NCBI GenBank assembly: GCA_026702745.1
Contig: JAPPBT010000005.1
Location: 15,387 to 79,386, forward strand
Source: Gemmatimonadota bacterium
Lineage (GTDB): Bacteria; JAAXHH01
Direction of reading: 5' to 3'
DNA: 64,000 bases
Shown: piece by piece, positions 1-38,635 of the stretch
How the letters are laid out: every line of letters starts with the position of its first letter
Numbering within the stretch: the first letter of the stretch is position 1
Position numbers and translations under genes: made by a program
Notes under the pieces: generated by a model
What the model saw: only the letters and a program-made list of their open reading frames with translations
The model's database searches: none
Told to the model about the DNA's origin: nothing

Positions 1-441
1 GGTGGATCGGACGACGCCCTCGACGTTACGCAGGAAGCCTTTGTCAAGGCCTACACCACGCTCACCGGAAAGTACGACGCGGAGCGCTGCCGGACGCTCG
101 AAGTCCGTCCCTGGCTGTACCGCATCGTCCGGAACCTGGCGCTGAACAGGCTGAGGTCGCGCAAACGAAGAGACGACGCACTGGTCAGCATGAAGGGCAA
201 CTTGCCTGCACAGGTTGTCGACACCGGAAACGAACGGTCACGGACGAGCACGATCCGGGCGGCCCTCGCTGTGCTGGGAAGGGAAAGCCGGGAACTGATC
301 ATCCTGCGCTTCATCGAGCAGTACACGTACGCGGAAATCGCGACGGTCACCGGCTCTTCGGAATCGGCGCTGCGGGGCAAGGTATACCGGGCGCTGCGTA
401 AACTTCGCAAGATCATGGAGGATGACCCTGGTGGATATTAA
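1..441 (+). CDS. ECF-type RNA polymerase sigma-70 factor (5' end lies outside the window)
   Basis: Frame 1 is open from base 1 (DALDVTQEAFVKAY...PWLYRIVRNLALNRLR, region 2) into ORF 190..441 (RELIILRFIEQYTYAEIATVTGSSESALRGKVYRALRKLR, region 4.2). Confidence 0.9.
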   Translation, partial: GGSDDALDVTQEAFVKAYTTLTGKYDAERCRTLEVRPWLYRIVRNLALNRLRSRKRRDDALVSMKGNLPAQVVDTGNERSRTSTIRAALAVLGRESRELIILRFIEQYTYAEIATVTGSSESALRGKVYRALRKLRKIMEDDPGGY

Positions 442-1321
442 CGAAGCGAGACAGTACCTGGATCGAATCAGGACCGGCGAGGCGGACGACGAGGCCAGCC
501 AGTCCGTGGCGAAACACCTGGAAAGGTGCGCGGATTTGCGCGAAGAGGCCGCTTTTCTGGAAGAACTTGCCGTGGATTCTCCCAAACTGAAAATGACCGC
601 TCCCGCAGGGATCGAGGAGGAAGTGATGATCAGGATTGCAGACCGATACGATGTGATCGACACGGATTTCGGATCGGCACACGTTGGGTTCACACCCAAA
701 GGCATTTCAGCGGTTAAACTCGACGTGGAAGAGGACGGCGCCTTCGAATCCTACTACAAAGACAGATTGGGGCGGCCTGCGGTCAGAGGTTCGCTCCCCG
801 AAGCGTATGCCGAAGCGGTCAGGCGGGCCATAAGAGGAGAGAAGATCGCCAAGCCACCGGTCACGCTGGAAGGGTTGACCGATTTTGAACAGACCGTGCT
901 CGAGCACCTGGCCAGGATTCCGACGGGCGAGGTACGACCCTATGCCTGGCTGGCCCGGGAAGTGGGCCGGCCGAAGGCTATCCGGGCCGTCGGGACCGTC
1001 ATGGCTCGCAATCCCGTTCCCTTCCTGATGCCCTGCCACCGTCTCGTTCCTACGACAGGAGGCGTCGGGAACTACTACTACGGACCGGAAATGAAATGGA
1101 CGCTGCTGGAGCGGGAAGGGATTCCACGGGAAGACCTGGCGAACTGGAAGCAGCGCGGGGTTCGCTTCATCGGCAGCCGGACGACCGGCATCTACTGCTA
1201 TCCGACCTGCCGCGACGCCCGGCGCGTTCAGCCGCGGCACCGGCTGGAATTCAGCTGTACGGAGGAAGCGGTGGACAGCGGATACCGGCCGTGCAAACAC
1301 TGCAGGCCGCTGGGGATGTAG
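422..1321 (+). CDS. Methylated-DNA--protein-cysteine methyltransferase fusion: anti-sigma-like N-terminus, Ogt domain and C-terminal Ada zinc-binding domain
   Basis: PCHR active site (NPVPFLMPCHRLV); C-terminal GIYCYPTC...GYRPCKHCRP matches the Ada metal-binding domain; N-terminal HLERCADL resembles a degenerate zf-HC2; overlaps the sigma gene by 20 bp. Confidence 0.9.
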   Translation: MTLVDINEARQYLDRIRTGEADDEASQSVAKHLERCADLREEAAFLEELAVDSPKLKMTAPAGIEEEVMIRIADRYDVIDTDFGSAHVGFTPKGISAVKLDVEEDGAFESYYKDRLGRPAVRGSLPEAYAEAVRRAIRGEKIAKPPVTLEGLTDFEQTVLEHLARIPTGEVRPYAWLAREVGRPKAIRAVGTVMARNPVPFLMPCHRLVPTTGGVGNYYYGPEMKWTLLEREGIPREDLANWKQRGVRFIGSRTTGIYCYPTCRDARRVQPRHRLEFSCTEEAVDSGYRPCKHCRPLGM

Positions 1322-1350
1322 ATACGGGGATGTAGATACAATGTAGATAC
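1312..1350. repeat. Short tandem duplication (GGGGATGTAGATAC x2 plus a partial copy) that includes the stop codon of the Ogt/Ada gene
   Basis: Read directly from the sequence. Confidence 0.85.
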
Positions 1351-2183
1351 TACCGATTACGCGGAGGAATCCGGTCGCCAACCGGCCTGGGAATGGGCCT
1401 CCAGTAACCCGAGGGATCACTGCCCCGGCAGATTACGGCCCGGTGGTATTCCGGGTAGCGGCCCCGCACGTCCGGCGGCAGGTACCGGATCGTCAGGCCG
1501 CAACGCCGACGGTCGGATACGTTCGGTTCGGAACCGTGCAGCAGCAGGTCGGTGTGCATGGAGATCTGCCCCGCCTTCATGACGAAGGGCACGGGATCTC
1601 CGCCCCACCTAAGCGGGTCCGTTACGGTCTGGCCCAGCACGTTCCGTTCGGCCTTCGTACTGTTCTCGAAGGGGATCTGCCCGTGCAGGTGGGAACCGGG
1701 GATGACCGTCATGGGCCCGTTTTCTTCGTCCACGTCGTCGATGGCCAGCCAGATCGTCACCACCTTGCTCGGGGTCAGGGGCCAGTAGGACGCGTCCTGG
1801 TGCCAGCTCACCCGCTGCACGTCGCCCGGCATCTTGCAGAAATAGTGGGTCATCTCGCAGATCAGCGTCTCCCCGACCAGGTCTTCCGCGTAGGCCAGTA
1901 TCCGCTCGTTCATGGTAAGATTGTAGATCCCCTCGCAATGCCGCTGCCATCCGTTGATCGAGTAGCTGTTGTATCCTTCCTGATCGGCGCGGGCCATAAG
2001 GTCTTCGAAATACAGGCGGTTCTCTTCGGCCTCCTGCGGGGTAAAGACATCGAGGGGGCAGAGATACCCGTTCGCGTTGAAGAAGTCGACCTGTTCGCGG
2101 GAAAGTGTTTTGGGGTGCTCGTTTCTTGCCGGGAAAAACCGCAGTTCCCGCTTCATTTCGGGCAAAGCATCGGTGATGGGCAT
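1350..2183 (-). CDS. Phytanoyl-CoA dioxygenase (PhyH) family Fe(II)/2OG dioxygenase
   Basis: FFNANGYL N-terminus, WHQD and LLHGS iron triad, TIWLAIDDVDEENGPM. Confidence 0.9.
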   Translation of the reverse strand: MPITDALPEMKRELRFFPARNEHPKTLSREQVDFFNANGYLCPLDVFTPQEAEENRLYFEDLMARADQEGYNSYSINGWQRHCEGIYNLTMNERILAYAEDLVGETLICEMTHYFCKMPGDVQRVSWHQDASYWPLTPSKVVTIWLAIDDVDEENGPMTVIPGSHLHGQIPFENSTKAERNVLGQTVTDPLRWGGDPVPFVMKAGQISMHTDLLLHGSEPNVSDRRRCGLTIRYLPPDVRGRYPEYHRAVICRGSDPSGYWRPIPRPVGDRIPPRNR

Positions 2184-2412
2184 GGGTGGGTCCCCACTGA
2201 AAGTACCGACGGGCGAATTCTGTAAGCTACCGCTGTTTCGATGGAGAATATAGCGACATGGGGGGTGGTAGACAACACTGATTGCAACATGGATACACCT
2301 GGAATAGAGCGGACATCTTTATTCCAAAGTAAATGTCATCAATTTGACCACACACGTCACATCATCCGGTTTTTGCCTCAACCGGTTATCTGACTGAAAG
2401 GAGCATCCAACC

Positions 2413-3840
2413 TTGAAACGCGGCACAGCCTCCCTTCTCAGGACCACCACGGAACACGCCCTGAAATGGATCGACGGTCTCGACCACCGGCCAGTCGCGG
2501 CGTTGACCACAATTGATGAGTTACGTCAACGTCTGGACGGACCGATTCCCAATGGTCCTTCGGACGACGAATCCGTCATCAACGAACTTGTATCCCACAC
2601 CGATGGGGGACTGATCGGATGTCCCGGTGGACGATTCTTCGGTTGGGTCATCGGTGGTACGCATCCAGCCGCGCTGGCGGCGGACTGGCTTGTGTCGACC
2701 TGGGACCAGAACGCCGCGTTGGCGGCCTGCTCTCCCGCGGAAGCCGTTATCGAAGAGACCGCCGGACGATGGCTAATCGAGTTGCTTGGCCTGCCCGGCG
2801 ACTCGTCCTTCGCGTTCACATCGGGTTGCCAACTCGCCCATTTGACGGCACTCGCAGCCGCCCGACGTCATTTGCTGGTGGGGTGCGGACACGATCCGGA
2901 ACGAGACGGACTCGCCGGCGGACCCCGCATGCATGTAGTATCGGGCACGCATGGCCATCACTCCGTGGAAAGGGCCGTTCGCCTACTGGGCATTGGATCT
3001 CGGCATCTGCACTTGGTACCCACCACCGATGGCTGCATAGATCCGCTTGCCCTGGGTGCACAACTGGATGCGTTGGGCGATGCGCCCGTTGCGGTGTGTC
3101 TGTCAGCCGGCGACATCAATACGGGCAACTTCGATGACTTCCGCACCGTGATTCCCCTGTGTCGCGTGCGCGACAACACGTGGGTACATGTGGACGGTGC
3201 CTTCGGCCTGTGGGCCAGGGTGTCAGCGCGTTTTTCTCATCTGCTCGACGCAGTGGAAACGGCCGATTCGTGGGCAACCGATGGACACAAGTGGCTCAAT
3301 ACGCCGTTCGACATTGGATTCGTGGCCGTTCGCCATCCCGAGTCCCATCGCGACGCGATAAGCATACGGGCCTCGTACCTGACCCATGGCTCTGCGCGAG
3401 ACCAGCTCGACTGGAACCCGGAATGGTCGCGGCGTGGCCGCGGCGTTCCCGTGTATGCGGTCGTCAAAGCCCTCGGCCGGCAGGGCATCGCCGACATAGT
3501 GAACCGGTGTTGCGACGCGGCGGCGGGTTTGGTTGAGGGGATCGGGTCGCTTCCCGGTGCCGAAATACTCTCCCCGGCGGTCATCAACCAGGGACTGGTG
3601 CGTTTCCTGGACCCAGCAGGTACAGACCACGACCGATTCACTGACCAGGTAATTAACCGTATTCAGTCGGAGGGAACCGCGTGGTTCGGAGGTACCGACT
3701 GGTGTGGGATGCGCGCGATGCGGATCAGCGTCTGTTCCTGGGCTACCCTGGCCTCCGATGTTGAAAAAACCGTGGATGCCGTGCGTCGGATCCTGGACGC
3801 CATGCACAGTGCCGTTGACTCAGATACGTATAAGCCGTAA
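2413..3840 (+). CDS. PLP-dependent group II amino acid decarboxylase family protein
   Basis: WVHVDGAFG and WATDGHKWLN (PLP lysine); TTG start with GAAAGGAG ribosome-binding site. Confidence 0.88.
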   Translation: MKRGTASLLRTTTEHALKWIDGLDHRPVAALTTIDELRQRLDGPIPNGPSDDESVINELVSHTDGGLIGCPGGRFFGWVIGGTHPAALAADWLVSTWDQNAALAACSPAEAVIEETAGRWLIELLGLPGDSSFAFTSGCQLAHLTALAAARRHLLVGCGHDPERDGLAGGPRMHVVSGTHGHHSVERAVRLLGIGSRHLHLVPTTDGCIDPLALGAQLDALGDAPVAVCLSAGDINTGNFDDFRTVIPLCRVRDNTWVHVDGAFGLWARVSARFSHLLDAVETADSWATDGHKWLNTPFDIGFVAVRHPESHRDAISIRASYLTHGSARDQLDWNPEWSRRGRGVPVYAVVKALGRQGIADIVNRCCDAAAGLVEGIGSLPGAEILSPAVINQGLVRFLDPAGTDHDRFTDQVINRIQSEGTAWFGGTDWCGMRAMRISVCSWATLASDVEKTVDAVRRILDAMHSAVDSDTYKP

Positions 3841-3850
3841 ATAACCATGT

Positions 3851-4663
3851 ATGGACGATACCACGAACAGGGCACTTCACTCGCTTGATCTCGCTCCGGG
3901 CGCGTCGCTGGATGACGTGAAGAAATCGTACCGGGAACTGGCGCTGATCTGGCATCCGGACAAAGTGCCCGAACGGGTGAAAGACCGGGCTACCGCCAAG
4001 TTTACGGAGATCAACGAGGCATACCAGTGGCTCGTTCGAAATCCGGAGAACCTGCGGATGTATTCGACTCACAGGTCAACTTCGCAGCGGCAGTCTCCTC
4101 CTCACTATCGTTCTTCCTCGCAATCTTCCCGTACACGAACGGAGTATTCCCGGTCCGGCGCGTCAGGTCGAGCCTCACAGTCTGGTGCCTCCTGGACCGA
4201 CGCCTCCAGCGGCACGGGATCCGGGTCGTCGTCCGATCCTGCTGTTCAGCGTGTCCGACAGGCCGCTCGTGGCATCTTGACCGATGCCAGGGCCGGCCTG
4301 TACGTCTACCCCGATATCGACCCCGACCGGGCGGCGAACTTCGTCGTTTCGCTGCAGCGTGACATACGTTTCAGCGGTGTGGCCGCGACAGTGAACGACC
4401 TGCTGGTGTTTTACGATATCGACGGTTCCGGCGAGGAAGGCATGGCCATCACCCGGTCGAACCACCTGGTCAACAACAACACCGGGACCCTCTATGACAT
4501 CGGCGAGCTGGTGGAAGTCCGTTTGAAGGAAGGGTTCTTCTTCTGGAGCGAGATCGTGGTGCGCAGACTGGGAAGCAGGAAGTTCGAACTCGCGGGTTAT
4601 GCGGAAAATGGACCGGGACGGGCGCTGGTGAGTATTCTCGGAAACCTGATAGGAAATGACTGA
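3851..4663 (+). CDS. J-domain (DnaJ-type) protein with a Ser-rich linker and an uncharacterised C-terminal domain
   Basis: DVKKSYRELALIWHPDK (HPD motif) and FTEINEAYQWL. Confidence 0.85.
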   Translation: MDDTTNRALHSLDLAPGASLDDVKKSYRELALIWHPDKVPERVKDRATAKFTEINEAYQWLVRNPENLRMYSTHRSTSQRQSPPHYRSSSQSSRTRTEYSRSGASGRASQSGASWTDASSGTGSGSSSDPAVQRVRQAARGILTDARAGLYVYPDIDPDRAANFVVSLQRDIRFSGVAATVNDLLVFYDIDGSGEEGMAITRSNHLVNNNTGTLYDIGELVEVRLKEGFFFWSEIVVRRLGSRKFELAGYAENGPGRALVSILGNLIGND

Positions 4664-37819: not shown

Positions 37820-38635
37820 ATGCGGATTACCCATACCAGGCGTGAAGAGATGCACCTGGGCGTTAGCCACGGCGGCGCCGCGGCAAGCTACTTCAACCCA
37901 GGCTTCAGCGAACGTGACTTCGAGTCGCCGTGGACGTTCATCCACTCGGTGATCTTCCCGCCCGGCAGCGGCATAGGACAACACAGCCACACCCACGCGG
38001 AAGAAATCTTCGTTACCATCGACAACGCCGCGCAATTCACCCACAACGGCCGCACGGCCGAAGTCGTCGGCGGCGCCGCGGTGCCCCTGCGCTCGGGCGA
38101 GTCCCACGGCATCTACAACCACACGGACCGGGACACCTGGTTCTTCAATTTTCACTGCGTGGATACGGTCCGCGAACCGAAGCACGAGGATTTCGACGAC
38201 CCGCGCATCGGGGTCGAGCTGGAGTCCACGGACCGCCTGCCCGTGGGGCGTTTCGACCGCGCCCTGCTGAAACCTCGACGGCACCACGGCGGCAAGGGCG
38301 AAGTGTTTTTTCGGGAGGTATGGGGCAGCCGGGATTTCCAGACGAATTTCGAGTATCTCTGCCATATACTGCTGCCGCCAGGCACTTCCGTAGGTTACCA
38401 CCGGCACGTGATCGTCGACGAGGCCTATATGATCATGAACGGCAGCGGCCGGATGACGGTCGACGACGAGACGGAAGAGGTCGTCCGCGGGGACGCTATC
38501 CCGAATAACATGGGAGGGGCGCACGGTATCTACAACCATACGGATGAGGACCTGGAACTTTTTGTCGTCGGCGTGAGCCTGGAAAAGGGCAAGGTGGACG
38601 CGACCGACCTGGGCGACGACCTGGCAGGACGATGA
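37820..38635 (+). CDS. Bicupin (double cupin domain) protein
   Basis: GQHSHTHAEE...ESHGIYNH and GYHRHVIVDE...GAHGIYNH. Confidence 0.85.
   Translation: MRITHTRREEMHLGVSHGGAAASYFNPGFSERDFESPWTFIHSVIFPPGSGIGQHSHTHAEEIFVTIDNAAQFTHNGRTAEVVGGAAVPLRSGESHGIYNHTDRDTWFFNFHCVDTVREPKHEDFDDPRIGVELESTDRLPVGRFDRALLKPRRHHGGKGEVFFREVWGSRDFQTNFEYLCHILLPPGTSVGYHRHVIVDEAYMIMNGSGRMTVDDETEEVVRGDAIPNNMGGAHGIYNHTDEDLELFVVGVSLEKGKVDATDLGDDLAGR

What the first reader, a model, noticed from the sequence alone, without database searches (positions are those of the whole stretch)
1..1321. ECF sigma factor coupled to an anti-sigma-like / Ogt / Ada-Zn fusion: possible alkylation-sensing sigma switch
Seen: the gene overlapping the ECF sigma encodes an N-terminal HxxxC segment like a degenerate zf-HC2 anti-sigma (the second Cys is Leu), an O6-methylguanine methyltransferase (PCHR) and an Ada zinc domain at the C-terminus (CxxxC...CxxC). 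There is no AraC HTH. Known: in E. coli Ada the Zn domain is N-terminal, and its methylation converts Ada into an activator through the AraC HTH. Inference: here methyl transfer to the Ogt or Ada cysteine could release the partner sigma factor, giving an adaptive response wired through an ECF sigma. Comparative ECF surveys may already list this gene pair, so the novelty would be the mechanism.
Basis: partly seen in the sequence, partly recalled or inferred. Interest (0 to 1): 0.75.

Follow-up and report, generated by a model that had tools for sequence, protein, structure and literature searches.

The report
Anti-sigma factor fused to alkyl-repair domains
A stress sigma factor gene overlaps a gene for its likely inhibitor, which is fused to two single-use DNA-methyl-damage repair modules, so repairing alkylated DNA may itself switch the operon on; the gene pair is catalogued, but the mechanism has never been tested.

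Summary
Window 1-441 is the 3' part of an ECF sigma gene. It overlaps a 296/299-aa soluble protein (431/422-1321) with three parts. The first is a four-helix class-I anti-sigma domain whose zinc motif is degenerate (H32-x3-C36-x2-L39). The second is a complete Ogt alkyltransferase (PCHR, Cys205). The third is a C-terminal Ada-type Cys4 zinc domain. There is no AraC HTH.

The pairing is not chance. All 44 homologous loci with readable upstream DNA, from several phyla, have an ECF sigma directly upstream. All 43 with promoter DNA carry an ECF-type motif, AAC-N16-G(G/T)GTT, before the sigma gene.

Within the window's sponge-symbiont clade, 14 of 22 members have lost anti-sigma zinc ligands in different ways. 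The Ogt cysteine and the four Ada cysteines are invariant. This argues against thiol or zinc sensing in the anti-sigma domain and favours the methyl-acceptor sites as the sensor.

One Chloroflexota locus extends the operon with a second Ogt-AdaZn gene and an AlkA-like glycosylase.

A review lists the pair as ECF122, "no anti-sigma factor, mechanism unknown". I could not test sigma binding or release on methylation. I rate it a new variant of known kinds, with moderately high interest.

The parts
1..441 (+). ECF sigma factor gene, cut at its 5' end by the window edge. It is 146 aa here and 186 aa in the closest relative, L001. Region 2 is about nt 7-171 and region 4 about nt 253-411. The stop is TAA 439-441.
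   Evidence: Pfam Sigma70_r2 and Sigma70_r4_2; TIGR02937 at 70.1 bits against a cut-off of 42.9. The orthologue in L001 scores E 1.8e-83. The closest solved structure is SigW, 5wuq_A, E 6e-18.
417..421 (+). Shine-Dalgarno GGAGG. It lies 9 nt before GTG 431 and directly abuts ATG 422.
   Evidence: Read from the sequence. The start is conserved as 'V/M-D-x-N-E-A-R' in 21 clade members, most of which lack the upstream ATG.
431..1321 (+). Anti-sigma::Ogt::Ada-Zn fusion gene. It is 296 aa from GTG 431, or 299 aa from ATG 422. Residue numbers in this report count from 422. It overlaps the sigma gene by 11 nt (20 nt from ATG 422).
   Evidence: AF2 model with mean pLDDT 90.2 and pTM 0.74. The same 11-nt overlap is seen in L042, L043, L044 and L046.
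431..637 (+). Class-I anti-sigma domain, residues 4-72, with four helices (6-17, 23-35, 37-56, 64-72).
   Evidence: AF2 secondary structure. Foldseek match to RsiW 5wuq_D: probability 0.99, TM 0.65, 63 columns. Family N-terminal profile against PDB: RsiW 3e-5, RslA, DdvA, ChrR. dN/dS 0.35.
515..538 (+). Degenerate ZAS motif H32-x3-C36-x2-L39. The ancestral motif is H-x3-C-x2-C plus Cys6; the window has Ile6.
638..871 (+). Ogt N-terminal (ribonuclease-like) domain, residues 73-150.
   Evidence: Aligns to the C-terminal domain of E. coli Ada (1sfe residues 13 onward). Foldseek 1sfe E 8e-12, TM 0.81.
872..1126 (+). Ogt alkyltransferase / DNA-binding domain, residues 151-235. PCHR is at nt 1031-1042 and the acceptor Cys205 at nt 1034-1036.
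   Evidence: Pfam DNA_binding_1, E 2.7e-25. Y174, R188, N197, C205, H206, R207, Y218 and E232 are invariant in 84 sequences. They align with human AGT Y114, R128, N137, C145, H146, R147, Y158 and E172. dN/dS 0.05.
1163..1309 (+). Ada-type Cys4 zinc domain, residues 248-296. C259, C263, C291 and C294 correspond to E. coli Ada C38, C42, C69 and C72.
   Evidence: Pfam Ada_Zn_binding, E 8.7e-11. phmmer to 1adn, 1u8b and 1wpk, E 2.5e-7 to 8e-7, query 250-296 against Ada 29-74. Foldseek 1u8b probability 1.00. The four Cys are invariant in 116 of 116 sequences.

Best explanation
This is a self-contained two-gene ECF sigma / soluble anti-sigma module. The anti-sigma factor is itself a double 'suicide' methyl acceptor.

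Proposed steps:
1. At rest, the N-terminal four-helix anti-sigma domain holds the ECF sigma (inferred from homology and gene order).
2. When DNA is alkylated, the Ogt domain takes alkyl groups from O6-alkylguanine onto Cys205. The Ada-type zinc domain takes methyl groups from methylphosphotriesters onto Cys259. This is inferred from fully conserved catalytic residues.
3. These irreversible transfers inactivate the anti-sigma function. The route could be conformational change or destabilisation and proteolysis of the alkylated protein (inferred; alkylated AGT proteins are known to be destabilised). Alternatively, the methylated zinc domain could bind DNA more tightly (also inferred; this is how E. 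coli Ada behaves).
4. Freed sigma transcribes its own operon from the conserved promoter CGAAC-N16-GTGTT. The window's own promoter lies just beyond its 5' edge.
5. New unmethylated fusion protein restocks repair capacity and re-sequesters sigma.

The module would thus be an adaptive response to alkylation in which an ECF sigma replaces the AraC HTH of Ada. In most loci the operon itself appears to be the main output. In some lineages further repair genes are attached.
For: 1. **Three modules.** All three were verified by sequence and by fold.
2. **Matching solved relatives.** The sigma's closest solved relative is SigW and the anti-sigma domain's is RsiW. These are the two chains of one complex, 5WUQ.
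3. **Gene order.** An ECF sigma lies directly upstream on the same strand, overlapping or abutting, in 38 of 38 genome loci. The same holds in 6 of 6 further long-form loci from metagenomes and MAGs, two of them labelled Chloroflexota and Longimicrobiales.
4. **Promoter.** All 43 loci with upstream DNA carry AAC-N16-G(G/T)GTT at a fixed distance from the sigma start. The chance expectation is about 0.01-0.015 per upstream region. The spacer varies and the upstream context is rearranged in some loci, yet only the -35 and -10 blocks are invariant.
5. **Natural experiment.** In the window's clade the anti-sigma zinc ligands are intact in 8 of 22 members and lost in at least 10 different ways in 14 of 22. 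Cys205 and the four Ada Cys are intact in 22 of 22 (116 of 116 family-wide). The anti-sigma domain is still under purifying selection, with dN/dS 0.33-0.35.
6. **Link to alkylation repair.** The L042 operon reads sigma, fusion, a second Ogt-AdaZn, then an HhH-GPD (AlkA-like) glycosylase.
7. **Established knowledge, not tested here.** In E. coli, N-Ada Cys38 methylation is the switch of the adaptive response, and methylphosphotriester repair serves mainly as a signal.
Against: - There is no experimental or structural evidence of sigma binding, or of its loss on methylation. I could not model the complex.
- The window's own anti-sigma domain fails Pfam zf-HC2 and lacks two of the four zinc ligands.
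- Ogt-AdaZn proteins with no detectable anti-sigma domain are common: 77 of 148 cluster representatives, plus the L042 paralogue. The two acceptor domains can therefore be plain repair modules.
- Actinobacterial relatives keep only about 35 N-terminal residues (end of helix III plus helix IV) yet are still sigma-linked. The sigma-binding determinant is therefore uncertain.
- I found no second promoter of this type in the 64-kb window or within +-6-8 kb of 46 loci. No regulon beyond the operon is shown. The whole genome could not be searched.
- No RNA data exist for this organism.
Confidence: 0.55

Rival explanations
1. The fusion is a genuine anti-sigma factor, but methyl transfer is not the signal. 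Sigma would be released by another cue: oxidation or direct electrophile attack on the ZAS zinc site, regulated proteolysis, or a partner protein. On this reading the Ogt and Ada-Zn domains are cargo, a repair enzyme whose amount simply tracks the sigma/anti-sigma operon.
For: At least 90% of family members keep a full C-H-C-C ZAS site. All 13 representatives with a full anti-sigma domain have HxxxCxxC. Soluble ZAS anti-sigma factors such as RsrA sense thiol-reactive compounds (established knowledge). Ogt-AdaZn also exists without an anti-sigma domain.
Against: In the window's clade the zinc ligands were lost repeatedly (14 of 22). The module, its promoter and the acceptor cysteines persisted, and the anti-sigma domain stayed under purifying selection. 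A ZAS-based sensor therefore cannot work in this window's protein. Actinobacterial short forms have no ZAS motif at all and remain sigma-coupled. This rival also gives no reason why an anti-sigma domain should be fused to two acceptor domains across phyla.
Confidence: 0.2
2. There is no anti-sigma function in this clade. The N-terminal helices are a degenerate remnant, or a dimerisation or DNA-handling module. The ECF sigma would be controlled elsewhere, for example only through its own transcription. The downstream gene would be just a sigma-dependent bifunctional repair enzyme.
For: The window's N-terminus has no significant Pfam hit and has lost 2 of 4 zinc ligands. Its dN/dS is the highest of all the domains, at 0.35. 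The ECF literature files ECF122 under 'no anti-sigma factor'. The depositor's gene call (198 aa, P0043) omits the N-terminus entirely.
Against: AF2 predicts four confident helices (pLDDT about 88 over residues 11-50) that superpose on sigma-bound RsiW (probability 0.99). A dN/dS of 0.35 still indicates purifying selection. Helix IV ('TAPAGIEEEVMIR') is nearly invariant in the clade. The overlapping start/stop gene order is the standard sigma/anti-sigma arrangement and holds in 44 of 44 loci. From my own knowledge, zinc-free class-I anti-sigma domains such as RseA are functional.
Confidence: 0.12
3. The fusion is a direct chemical sensor. Soluble SN2 methylating agents such as methyl halides, which are plausible in a sponge host, would methylate the Ada-type zinc thiolate directly, without DNA damage as an intermediate. 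That would release sigma.
For: The window comes from a sponge metagenome, and the whole close clade is sponge or marine associated. The Ada Cys4 site is intact. From my own knowledge, E. coli Ada can be activated by direct methylation with methyl iodide.
Against: This is really a sub-variant of the best explanation. The complete DNA-binding and base-flipping apparatus of Ogt is strictly conserved (dN/dS 0.05; Y174, R188, N197). That points to DNA lesions as substrates. The family is not restricted to sponge symbionts.
Confidence: 0.08

Closest known systems
E. coli Ada (adaptive response regulator; PDB 1adn, 1u8b, 1wpk for N-Ada and 1sfe for C-Ada) and B. subtilis AdaA/AdaB
   Same: Both combine an Ada-type Cys4 zinc methylphosphotriester acceptor and an O6-alkylguanine alkyltransferase in one regulatory protein. 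All acceptor and ligand residues are conserved. Both presumably induce their own synthesis.
   Different: The domain order is reversed: the zinc domain is C-terminal here and N-terminal in Ada. There is no AraC/HTH_18 domain. The Ada equivalog NF011964 scores 101 bits against a cut-off of 345. Output would run through sequestration and release of an ECF sigma, not through promoter binding by the methylated protein.
SigW-RsiW of Bacillus subtilis (PDB 5WUQ) and other ECF sigma / class-I (ZAS) anti-sigma pairs (RslA 3HUG, ChrR 2Q1Z, DdvA 8RLZ)
   Same: These are the closest solved relatives of both partners. The anti-sigma domain has the same four-helix layout. The family ancestrally has the same C-H-C-C zinc motif. 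The co-transcribed sigma-then-anti-sigma gene order is the same.
   Different: The anti-sigma factor here is soluble, with no transmembrane segment or extracytoplasmic sensor. It carries two DNA-repair acceptor domains instead. The window's copy has lost two zinc ligands. RsiW is released by regulated intramembrane proteolysis (established knowledge).
SigR-RsrA / SigH-RshA (soluble ZAS anti-sigma factors that sense thiol-reactive stress)
   Same: Both have a soluble anti-sigma factor thought to be inactivated by covalent modification of its own cysteines. Both have an autoregulated operon. From my own knowledge, the promoter type is similar (GGAAT-N18-GTT), and AAC-N16-G(G/T)GTT here can equally be written AAC-N18-GTT.
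   Different: RsrA did not appear among the PDB hits of the N-terminal profile at E <= 10. In RsrA the sensing cysteines lie inside the anti-sigma domain and their modification is reversible. Here the candidate sensing cysteines lie in appended repair domains and are alkylated irreversibly.
ECF122 group of the ECF classification 2.0 (Casas-Pastor et al. 2021, as summarised in PMC8999054)
   Same: It is an ECF sigma group whose conserved genomic neighbour is a 6-O-methylguanine DNA methyltransferase, with mechanism listed as unknown.
   Different: [quoted passage not shown] Its representative is actinobacterial (Cellulomonas), which would fit the short-form partners seen in L023-L038, though I did not test the link. 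Here the partner has a recognisable anti-sigma domain. I could not test whether the window's sigma belongs to ECF122, because no group HMMs were available.

Membership tests
ECF (group 4) sigma-70 factors | Only sigma regions 2 and 4 are present, and the protein matches the ECF superfamily model above its cut-off. | tested here: met
   Sigma70_r2 and Sigma70_r4_2 hits; TIGR02937 at 70.1 bits against 42.9 for the truncated window copy and 88 bits for the full-length L001 orthologue.
ECF122 (ECF classification 2.0) | The sigma sequence falls in the ECF122 group by the classification's own HMMs. | not testable with these tools
   Neither the ECF Hub HMMs nor the representative WP_057211282.1 were available. 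NCBIfam gives only generic ECF hits below the equivalog cut-offs.
ECF122 (ECF classification 2.0) | The conserved neighbour is a 6-O-methylguanine DNA methyltransferase. | tested here: met
   44 of 44 loci pair the sigma with the Ogt fusion. The group description is in PMC8999054.
Class-I anti-sigma domain (ASD) / ZAS, Pfam zf-HC2 PF13490 | A four-helix anti-sigma fold at the N-terminus. | tested here: met
   AF2 helices 6-17, 23-35, 37-56 and 64-72. Foldseek RsiW 5wuq probability 0.99, TM 0.65. The family profile hits RsiW, RslA, DdvA and ChrR.
Class-I anti-sigma domain (ASD) / ZAS, Pfam zf-HC2 PF13490 | The H-x3-C-x2-C zinc motif, plus an upstream Cys/His ligand. | tested here: not met
   The window has I6, H32, C36 and L39 and gives no Pfam zf-HC2 hit. 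The motif is met in at least 90% of the wider family. The window's protein is therefore an anti-sigma-fold protein but not a zinc-binding ZAS.
Class-I anti-sigma domain (ASD) / ZAS, Pfam zf-HC2 PF13490 | Binds and inhibits the cognate ECF sigma. | not testable with these tools
   A two-chain complex could not be submitted to the structure predictor. No natural single-chain sigma fusion was found among the six longest of the 150 listed cluster representatives.
O6-alkylguanine-DNA alkyltransferase (Ogt/AGT/MGMT; PF01035, TIGR00589) | The PCHR active site with acceptor Cys, the Asn hinge, the Arg finger, the Tyr, and the Glu of the Glu-His-water-Cys network. | tested here: met
   C205, H206, R207, N197, R188, Y174, Y218 and E232 are invariant. 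They align to hAGT C145, H146, R147, N137, R128, Y114, Y158 and E172. TIGR00589 scores 83.7 bits against 46.4. Foldseek 1sfe TM 0.81.
O6-alkylguanine-DNA alkyltransferase (Ogt/AGT/MGMT; PF01035, TIGR00589) | Stoichiometric alkyl transfer from DNA. | not testable with these tools
   This needs a biochemical assay.
Ada N-terminal zinc domain (PF02805) | A Cys4 zinc site, Cys38-x3-Cys42 ... Cys69-x2-Cys72, with the TTGIYC context. | tested here: met
   C259, C263, C291 and C294, with 'RTTGIYCYPTC'. Pfam scores 42.1 bits against 23. The region aligns to Ada 29-74. Foldseek 1u8b probability 1.00. The site is invariant in 116 of 116 sequences.
Bifunctional Ada regulator (NF011964) | An AraC-type HTH between the zinc domain and the alkyltransferase, with the zinc domain N-terminal. 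| tested here: not met
   No HTH_AraC or HTH_18 hit. NF011964 scores 101.5 bits against a cut-off of 345. Canonical Ada proteins in the same search do show these domains (P0242 and P0246).

The most novel reading that the evidence does not exclude
The anti-sigma factor would be a consumable suicide enzyme. Each methyl group it removes from DNA, from O6-methylguanine onto Cys205 or from a methylphosphotriester onto Cys259, would irreversibly disable one inhibitor molecule and free one ECF sigma molecule. Free sigma would then count lesions stoichiometrically, and the operon would refill itself. This would be the first sigma/anti-sigma switch triggered by irreversible alkyl transfer from damaged DNA. 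It would also be a second, independently wired form of the bacterial adaptive response to alkylation, spread over several phyla.
Probability: 0.4. Interest if true: 0.8.

Novelty: new variant of a known kind. Interest (0 to 1): 0.64.

Why it matters
The Ada response is the textbook case of a repair protein that becomes a transcription factor by being damaged, and it is wired through an AraC HTH. This module would show the same chemical logic wired through the ECF sigma/anti-sigma system.

That would add a new class of input, irreversible alkyl transfer from DNA, to ECF signalling. It would also explain an ECF group (ECF122-like) currently listed as having no anti-sigma factor and an unknown mechanism.

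The module is small: two genes and one promoter. It is easy to test by reconstitution in E. coli. It could also serve as an orthogonal alkylation-damage biosensor.

The window's clade adds a natural mutant series, with the ZAS zinc site lost and the acceptor sites kept. That series points to where the sensor is.

Tried and rejected
- **Whole-genome search.** I tried to search the window's genome for the promoter motif and for alkA, alkB and ogt paralogues. The genome search and the fetch from genomes were shut, so the regulon beyond 64 kb is unknown.
- **Promoter scan.** Position-weight-matrix and consensus scans found no second site with the N16 spacing in the window. They found none within +-6-8 kb in 46 loci other than the sigma promoter itself.
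- **Paralogue search in the window.** There is no second Ogt or AdaZn, no AlkA-like gene and no endonuclease V.
- **Conserved neighbours.** Nothing beyond the gene pair is shared between clades. The sponge clade has PhyH, a DnaJ-domain protein and an ABC substrate-binding protein. The actinobacterial clade has ArsC-like and class-V aminotransferase-like genes, named from their sequences only. Only L042 carries repair genes.
- **RNA evidence.** No RNA runs hold this stretch. The DNA runs that do are sponge metagenomes.
- **Sigma/anti-sigma complex model.** This was not possible. The predictor takes only single natural chains. The two genes overlap out of frame in the window and in every locus I checked. 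None of the six longest of the 150 listed representatives is a natural sigma-Ogt fusion.
- **Literature.** No paper combines ECF or anti-sigma terms with O6-methylguanine, alkylation or Ada_Zn_binding in a relevant way. 'ECF122' occurs only in PMC8999054. The Casas-Pastor main text and preprint do not mention it, and no supplement is held.
- **Rejected: the N-terminus belongs to the Ogt fold.** The Ada C-terminal alignment starts at residue 72.
- **Rejected: the 198-aa depositor gene call (P0043) is the true product.** Homologues at 75-90% identity align over 98-100% of the long form, and the N-terminus is under purifying selection.
- **Other scans.** Rfam, sigma-70 promoter and terminator scans found nothing relevant.
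Full report
**What is in the window**

Window 1-441(+) is the 3' part of an ECF sigma factor gene, cut by the window edge. It has Sigma70_r2 and Sigma70_r4_2 hits and passes TIGR02937 at 70.1 bits against a cut-off of 42.9. Its stop codon is TAA 439-441.

A second ORF, 422-1321(+), overlaps that stop and encodes 299 aa. Pfam finds an O6-alkylguanine alkyltransferase domain (DNA_binding_1, residues 154-234, E 2.7e-25). It also finds an Ada zinc domain at the C-terminus (residues 246-296, E 8.7e-11). No AraC-type HTH is present. The Ada equivalog model scores far below its cut-off, 101 against 345 bits.

- H32-x3-C36-x2-L39 at nt 515-538;
- PCHR at nt 1031-1042;
- C259-x3-C263 and C291-x2-C294 in the last 50 residues.

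The likely true start is GTG 431, giving 296 aa. A GGAGG lies 9 nt before it. Most clade members have only this start ('VDxNEAR'). The resulting 11-nt overlap with the sigma gene recurs in distant phyla. The depositor's gene call (P0043, 198 aa) starts at residue 102 and hides the N-terminal domain.

**The three modules are real**

An AlphaFold2 model built on 84 homologues is confident, with mean pLDDT 90.2 and pTM 0.74. It shows four N-terminal helices (6-17, 23-35, 37-56, 64-72) running straight into the Ogt fold.

Foldseek against the PDB matches each module to its prototype:
- the C-terminal domain of E. coli Ada (1sfe, E 8e-12, TM 0.81);
- methylated N-Ada bound to DNA (1u8b, probability 1.00, 39% identity over 54 columns);
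- the anti-sigma factor RsiW in complex with SigW (5wuq, probability 0.99, TM 0.65 over 63 columns).

By sequence, the catalytic set of alkyltransferases is complete and invariant in the family. Y174, R188, N197, C205, H206, R207, Y218 and E232 align with human AGT Y114, R128, N137, C145, H146, R147, Y158 and E172. The four zinc cysteines align with Ada C38, C42, C69 and C72 and are invariant in 116 of 116 homologues.

The window's N-terminus alone gives only weak anti-sigma hits. A profile of 34 homologous N-termini finds solved anti-sigma factors: RsiW 3e-5, RslA 4e-4, DdvA 5e-4, ChrR 1e-3. 31 of the 34 hit Pfam zf-HC2.

The full-length sigma of the closest relative finds SigW of the same 5WUQ complex as its best solved relative (6e-18). 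Both partners therefore point to one known sigma/anti-sigma pair.

**The pairing is conserved far beyond chance**

The fusion has 624 homologues at E <= 1e-3 in the word-indexed search. The best 120 are almost all 290-305 aa with the same architecture. Their source names include Gemmatimonadota, Acidobacteriota, Chloroflexota, Zixibacteria and Longimicrobiales. An exhaustive profile search gives 608 clusters (50% identity) at E <= 1e-30.

Of 39 genome loci fetched with the fusion as bait, 38 have readable upstream DNA. All 38 have an ECF sigma directly upstream on the same strand. Six further long-form homologues, looked up on their contigs, also have it, overlapping or abutting. That makes 44 of 44.

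No other neighbour is shared between clades. The conserved unit is the two-gene module.

**A conserved ECF-type promoter**

All 43 loci with upstream DNA carry AAC-N16-G(G/T)GTT at a fixed distance from the sigma start. In the window's clade it is CGAAC-N16-GTGTT, about 72 nt upstream. In actinobacterial loci it is TGCAAC-N16-GGGTT, about 40 nt upstream. The other phyla have CGAACG...GTGTT, 37-107 nt upstream.

The loose pattern is expected about 0.01-0.015 times per upstream region. In an alignment of the clade's upstream regions only the -35 and -10 blocks are invariant. The spacer varies, and several loci have entirely different sequence further upstream.

From my own knowledge, this pattern is typical of an autoregulated ECF promoter, and the motif resembles the SigR/SigH type. 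The window starts inside the sigma gene, so its own promoter is not in the window.

I found no second site of this kind in the 64-kb window or in the flanks of any locus. The only target demonstrable from sequence is therefore the operon itself.

**What this window adds: a natural mutant series**

Across the wider family the anti-sigma domain carries a full ZAS zinc site. C6, H32, C36 and C39 are each at least 90% conserved.

Within the window's sponge-associated clade (22 sequences) the set is intact in 8 and degenerate in 14. There are at least ten different residue combinations: IHCL in the window, then IHCI, RQCL, GQCI, KHCI, SHCS, CQCS, CQSS, RQSC, SHRS, RQCS and SQCS. The Ogt cysteine and all four Ada cysteines are intact in 22 of 22.

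The anti-sigma domain has not become a pseudo-domain. Its dN/dS is 0.33-0.35. For comparison:

| Region | dN/dS |
|---|---|
| Anti-sigma domain | 0.33-0.35 |
| Ogt N-domain | 0.14 |
| Ogt C-domain | 0.05 |
| Ada-Zn domain | 0.17 |

Helix IV is nearly invariant in the clade.

This argues that the anti-sigma zinc/thiol site is dispensable and cannot be the sensor in this protein. The sites under absolute constraint are the two methyl acceptors.

**Variants elsewhere**

Actinobacterial and Acidimicrobiia relatives (L023-L038) have only about 35 residues before the Ogt fold. These are homologous to the end of helix III and helix IV ('...SAPxGxLDxVM...'), with no HxxxCxxC. They are still coupled to an ECF sigma and carry the same promoter type.

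This probably explains why the ECF literature files the group as lacking an anti-sigma factor. PMC8999054 lists ECF122 with '6-O-methylguanine DNA methyltransferases' as the conserved neighbour, mechanism unknown, with a representative from Cellulomonas. I found no other paper mentioning it.

It also suggests that helix IV, or the Ogt body itself, takes part in holding sigma.

One Chloroflexota locus (L042) has four co-directional genes: the sigma, the fusion, a second Ogt-AdaZn without an anti-sigma domain, and an HhH-GPD (AlkA-like) glycosylase. This ties the module to alkylation repair. It is the only such case in 46 loci.

Among 148 cluster representatives nearest the family profile, 91 have Ogt plus a C-terminal Ada-Zn domain. 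Only 13 show a full anti-sigma domain with my profile. The acceptor pair therefore also exists as a plain repair architecture.

**Mechanism**

Shown:
- the domain content and intact catalytic residues;
- the gene order and overlap;
- the conserved promoter;
- the selection pattern.

Inferred:
- the N-terminal domain binds the sigma;
- alkyl transfer to Cys205 and/or Cys259 abolishes that binding;
- freed sigma transcribes the operon, which restocks the suicide enzyme and resets the switch.

How methylation would be transmitted is unknown. From my own knowledge there are two plausible routes. One is destabilisation and proteolysis of the alkylated alkyltransferase, as known for AGT proteins. 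The other is the electrostatic switch of the methylated Ada zinc site, which raises DNA affinity.

I put this explanation at about 0.55. The rivals are:
- an anti-sigma factor with a different signal and repair domains as cargo (0.2);
- no anti-sigma function in this clade (0.12);
- direct chemical methylation without DNA (0.08, a sub-variant of the best explanation).

**Comparison with earlier notes of this scan**

Six look-alike modules in other genomes were read the same way by earlier agents. I treated these as leads only. One supplied the ECF122 pointer, which I verified in the paper. The SigW-RsiW relation was reproduced independently here.

**Limits**

- The genome-wide tools were shut.
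- No transcript data exist for this organism.
- The sigma/anti-sigma complex could not be modelled.
- ECF group membership could not be tested.

**Verdict**

The finding is a new variant of known kinds: an Ada-type adaptive response wired through an ECF sigma/anti-sigma pair. The gene pair is catalogued but mechanistically unstudied.

Noticed in passing
window 1315-1350: The 28-nt gap between the fusion gene and the convergent PhyH gene holds three direct copies of ATGTAGATAC (TGTAGATAC begins at 1317, 1331 and 1342). The first copy contains the fusion's stop codon, TAG 1319-1321. Relatives carry one to three copies or variants (GTAGATAC, CCGTAGATACC) at the same place. Only one other copy occurs in the 64 kb, at 38526 on the minus strand.
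   Followed up: partly
window 725-1321: The depositor's gene call for the fusion (P0043, 198 aa) starts at an internal GTG (residue 102). It omits the anti-sigma domain and part of the Ogt N-domain. Annotation-based surveys would therefore miss the architecture in this genome.
   Followed up: yes
L042 8970-10671: In a Chloroflexota MAG the module is followed, on the same strand, by a second Ogt-AdaZn gene (244 aa, no anti-sigma domain) and an HhH-GPD (AlkA-like) glycosylase. This is the only locus of 46 with extra repair genes.
   Followed up: partly
L021 5843-6890: The fusion gene of this close relative is split by a frameshift into two overlapping reading frames (P0072, 269 aa). It is either a pseudogene or an assembly error.
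   Followed up: no
L023-L038 (e.g. L026 1516-2277): Actinobacterial and Acidimicrobiia homologues are short forms. They have about 35 N-terminal residues (helix-IV-like 'SAPxGxLDxVM') in place of the four-helix anti-sigma domain, and they are still sigma-coupled. Judged by sequence only (no domain search), several have an ArsC/low-molecular-weight-phosphatase-like gene just upstream and a class-V aminotransferase-like gene downstream.
   Followed up: partly
window 1350-4663; L040 9053-12311: PhyH-family dioxygenase genes flank the module in the sponge clade. One lies convergent downstream in the window at 1350-2183(-). It is followed by a PLP-dependent decarboxylase (2413-3840) and a DnaJ-domain protein (3851-4663). 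A more distant relative (L040) keeps PhyH and DnaJ and has an endonuclease V gene between them.
   Followed up: partly
L001-L022, about 20-40 nt upstream of the -35 box: A second conserved block, CTGTCAAG(A/C)(A/G)GGAT(A/G), lies upstream of the ECF promoter in about two thirds of the clade. It is absent where the upstream context is rearranged. It could be an operator, an UP-like element, or just shared ancestry.
   Followed up: no
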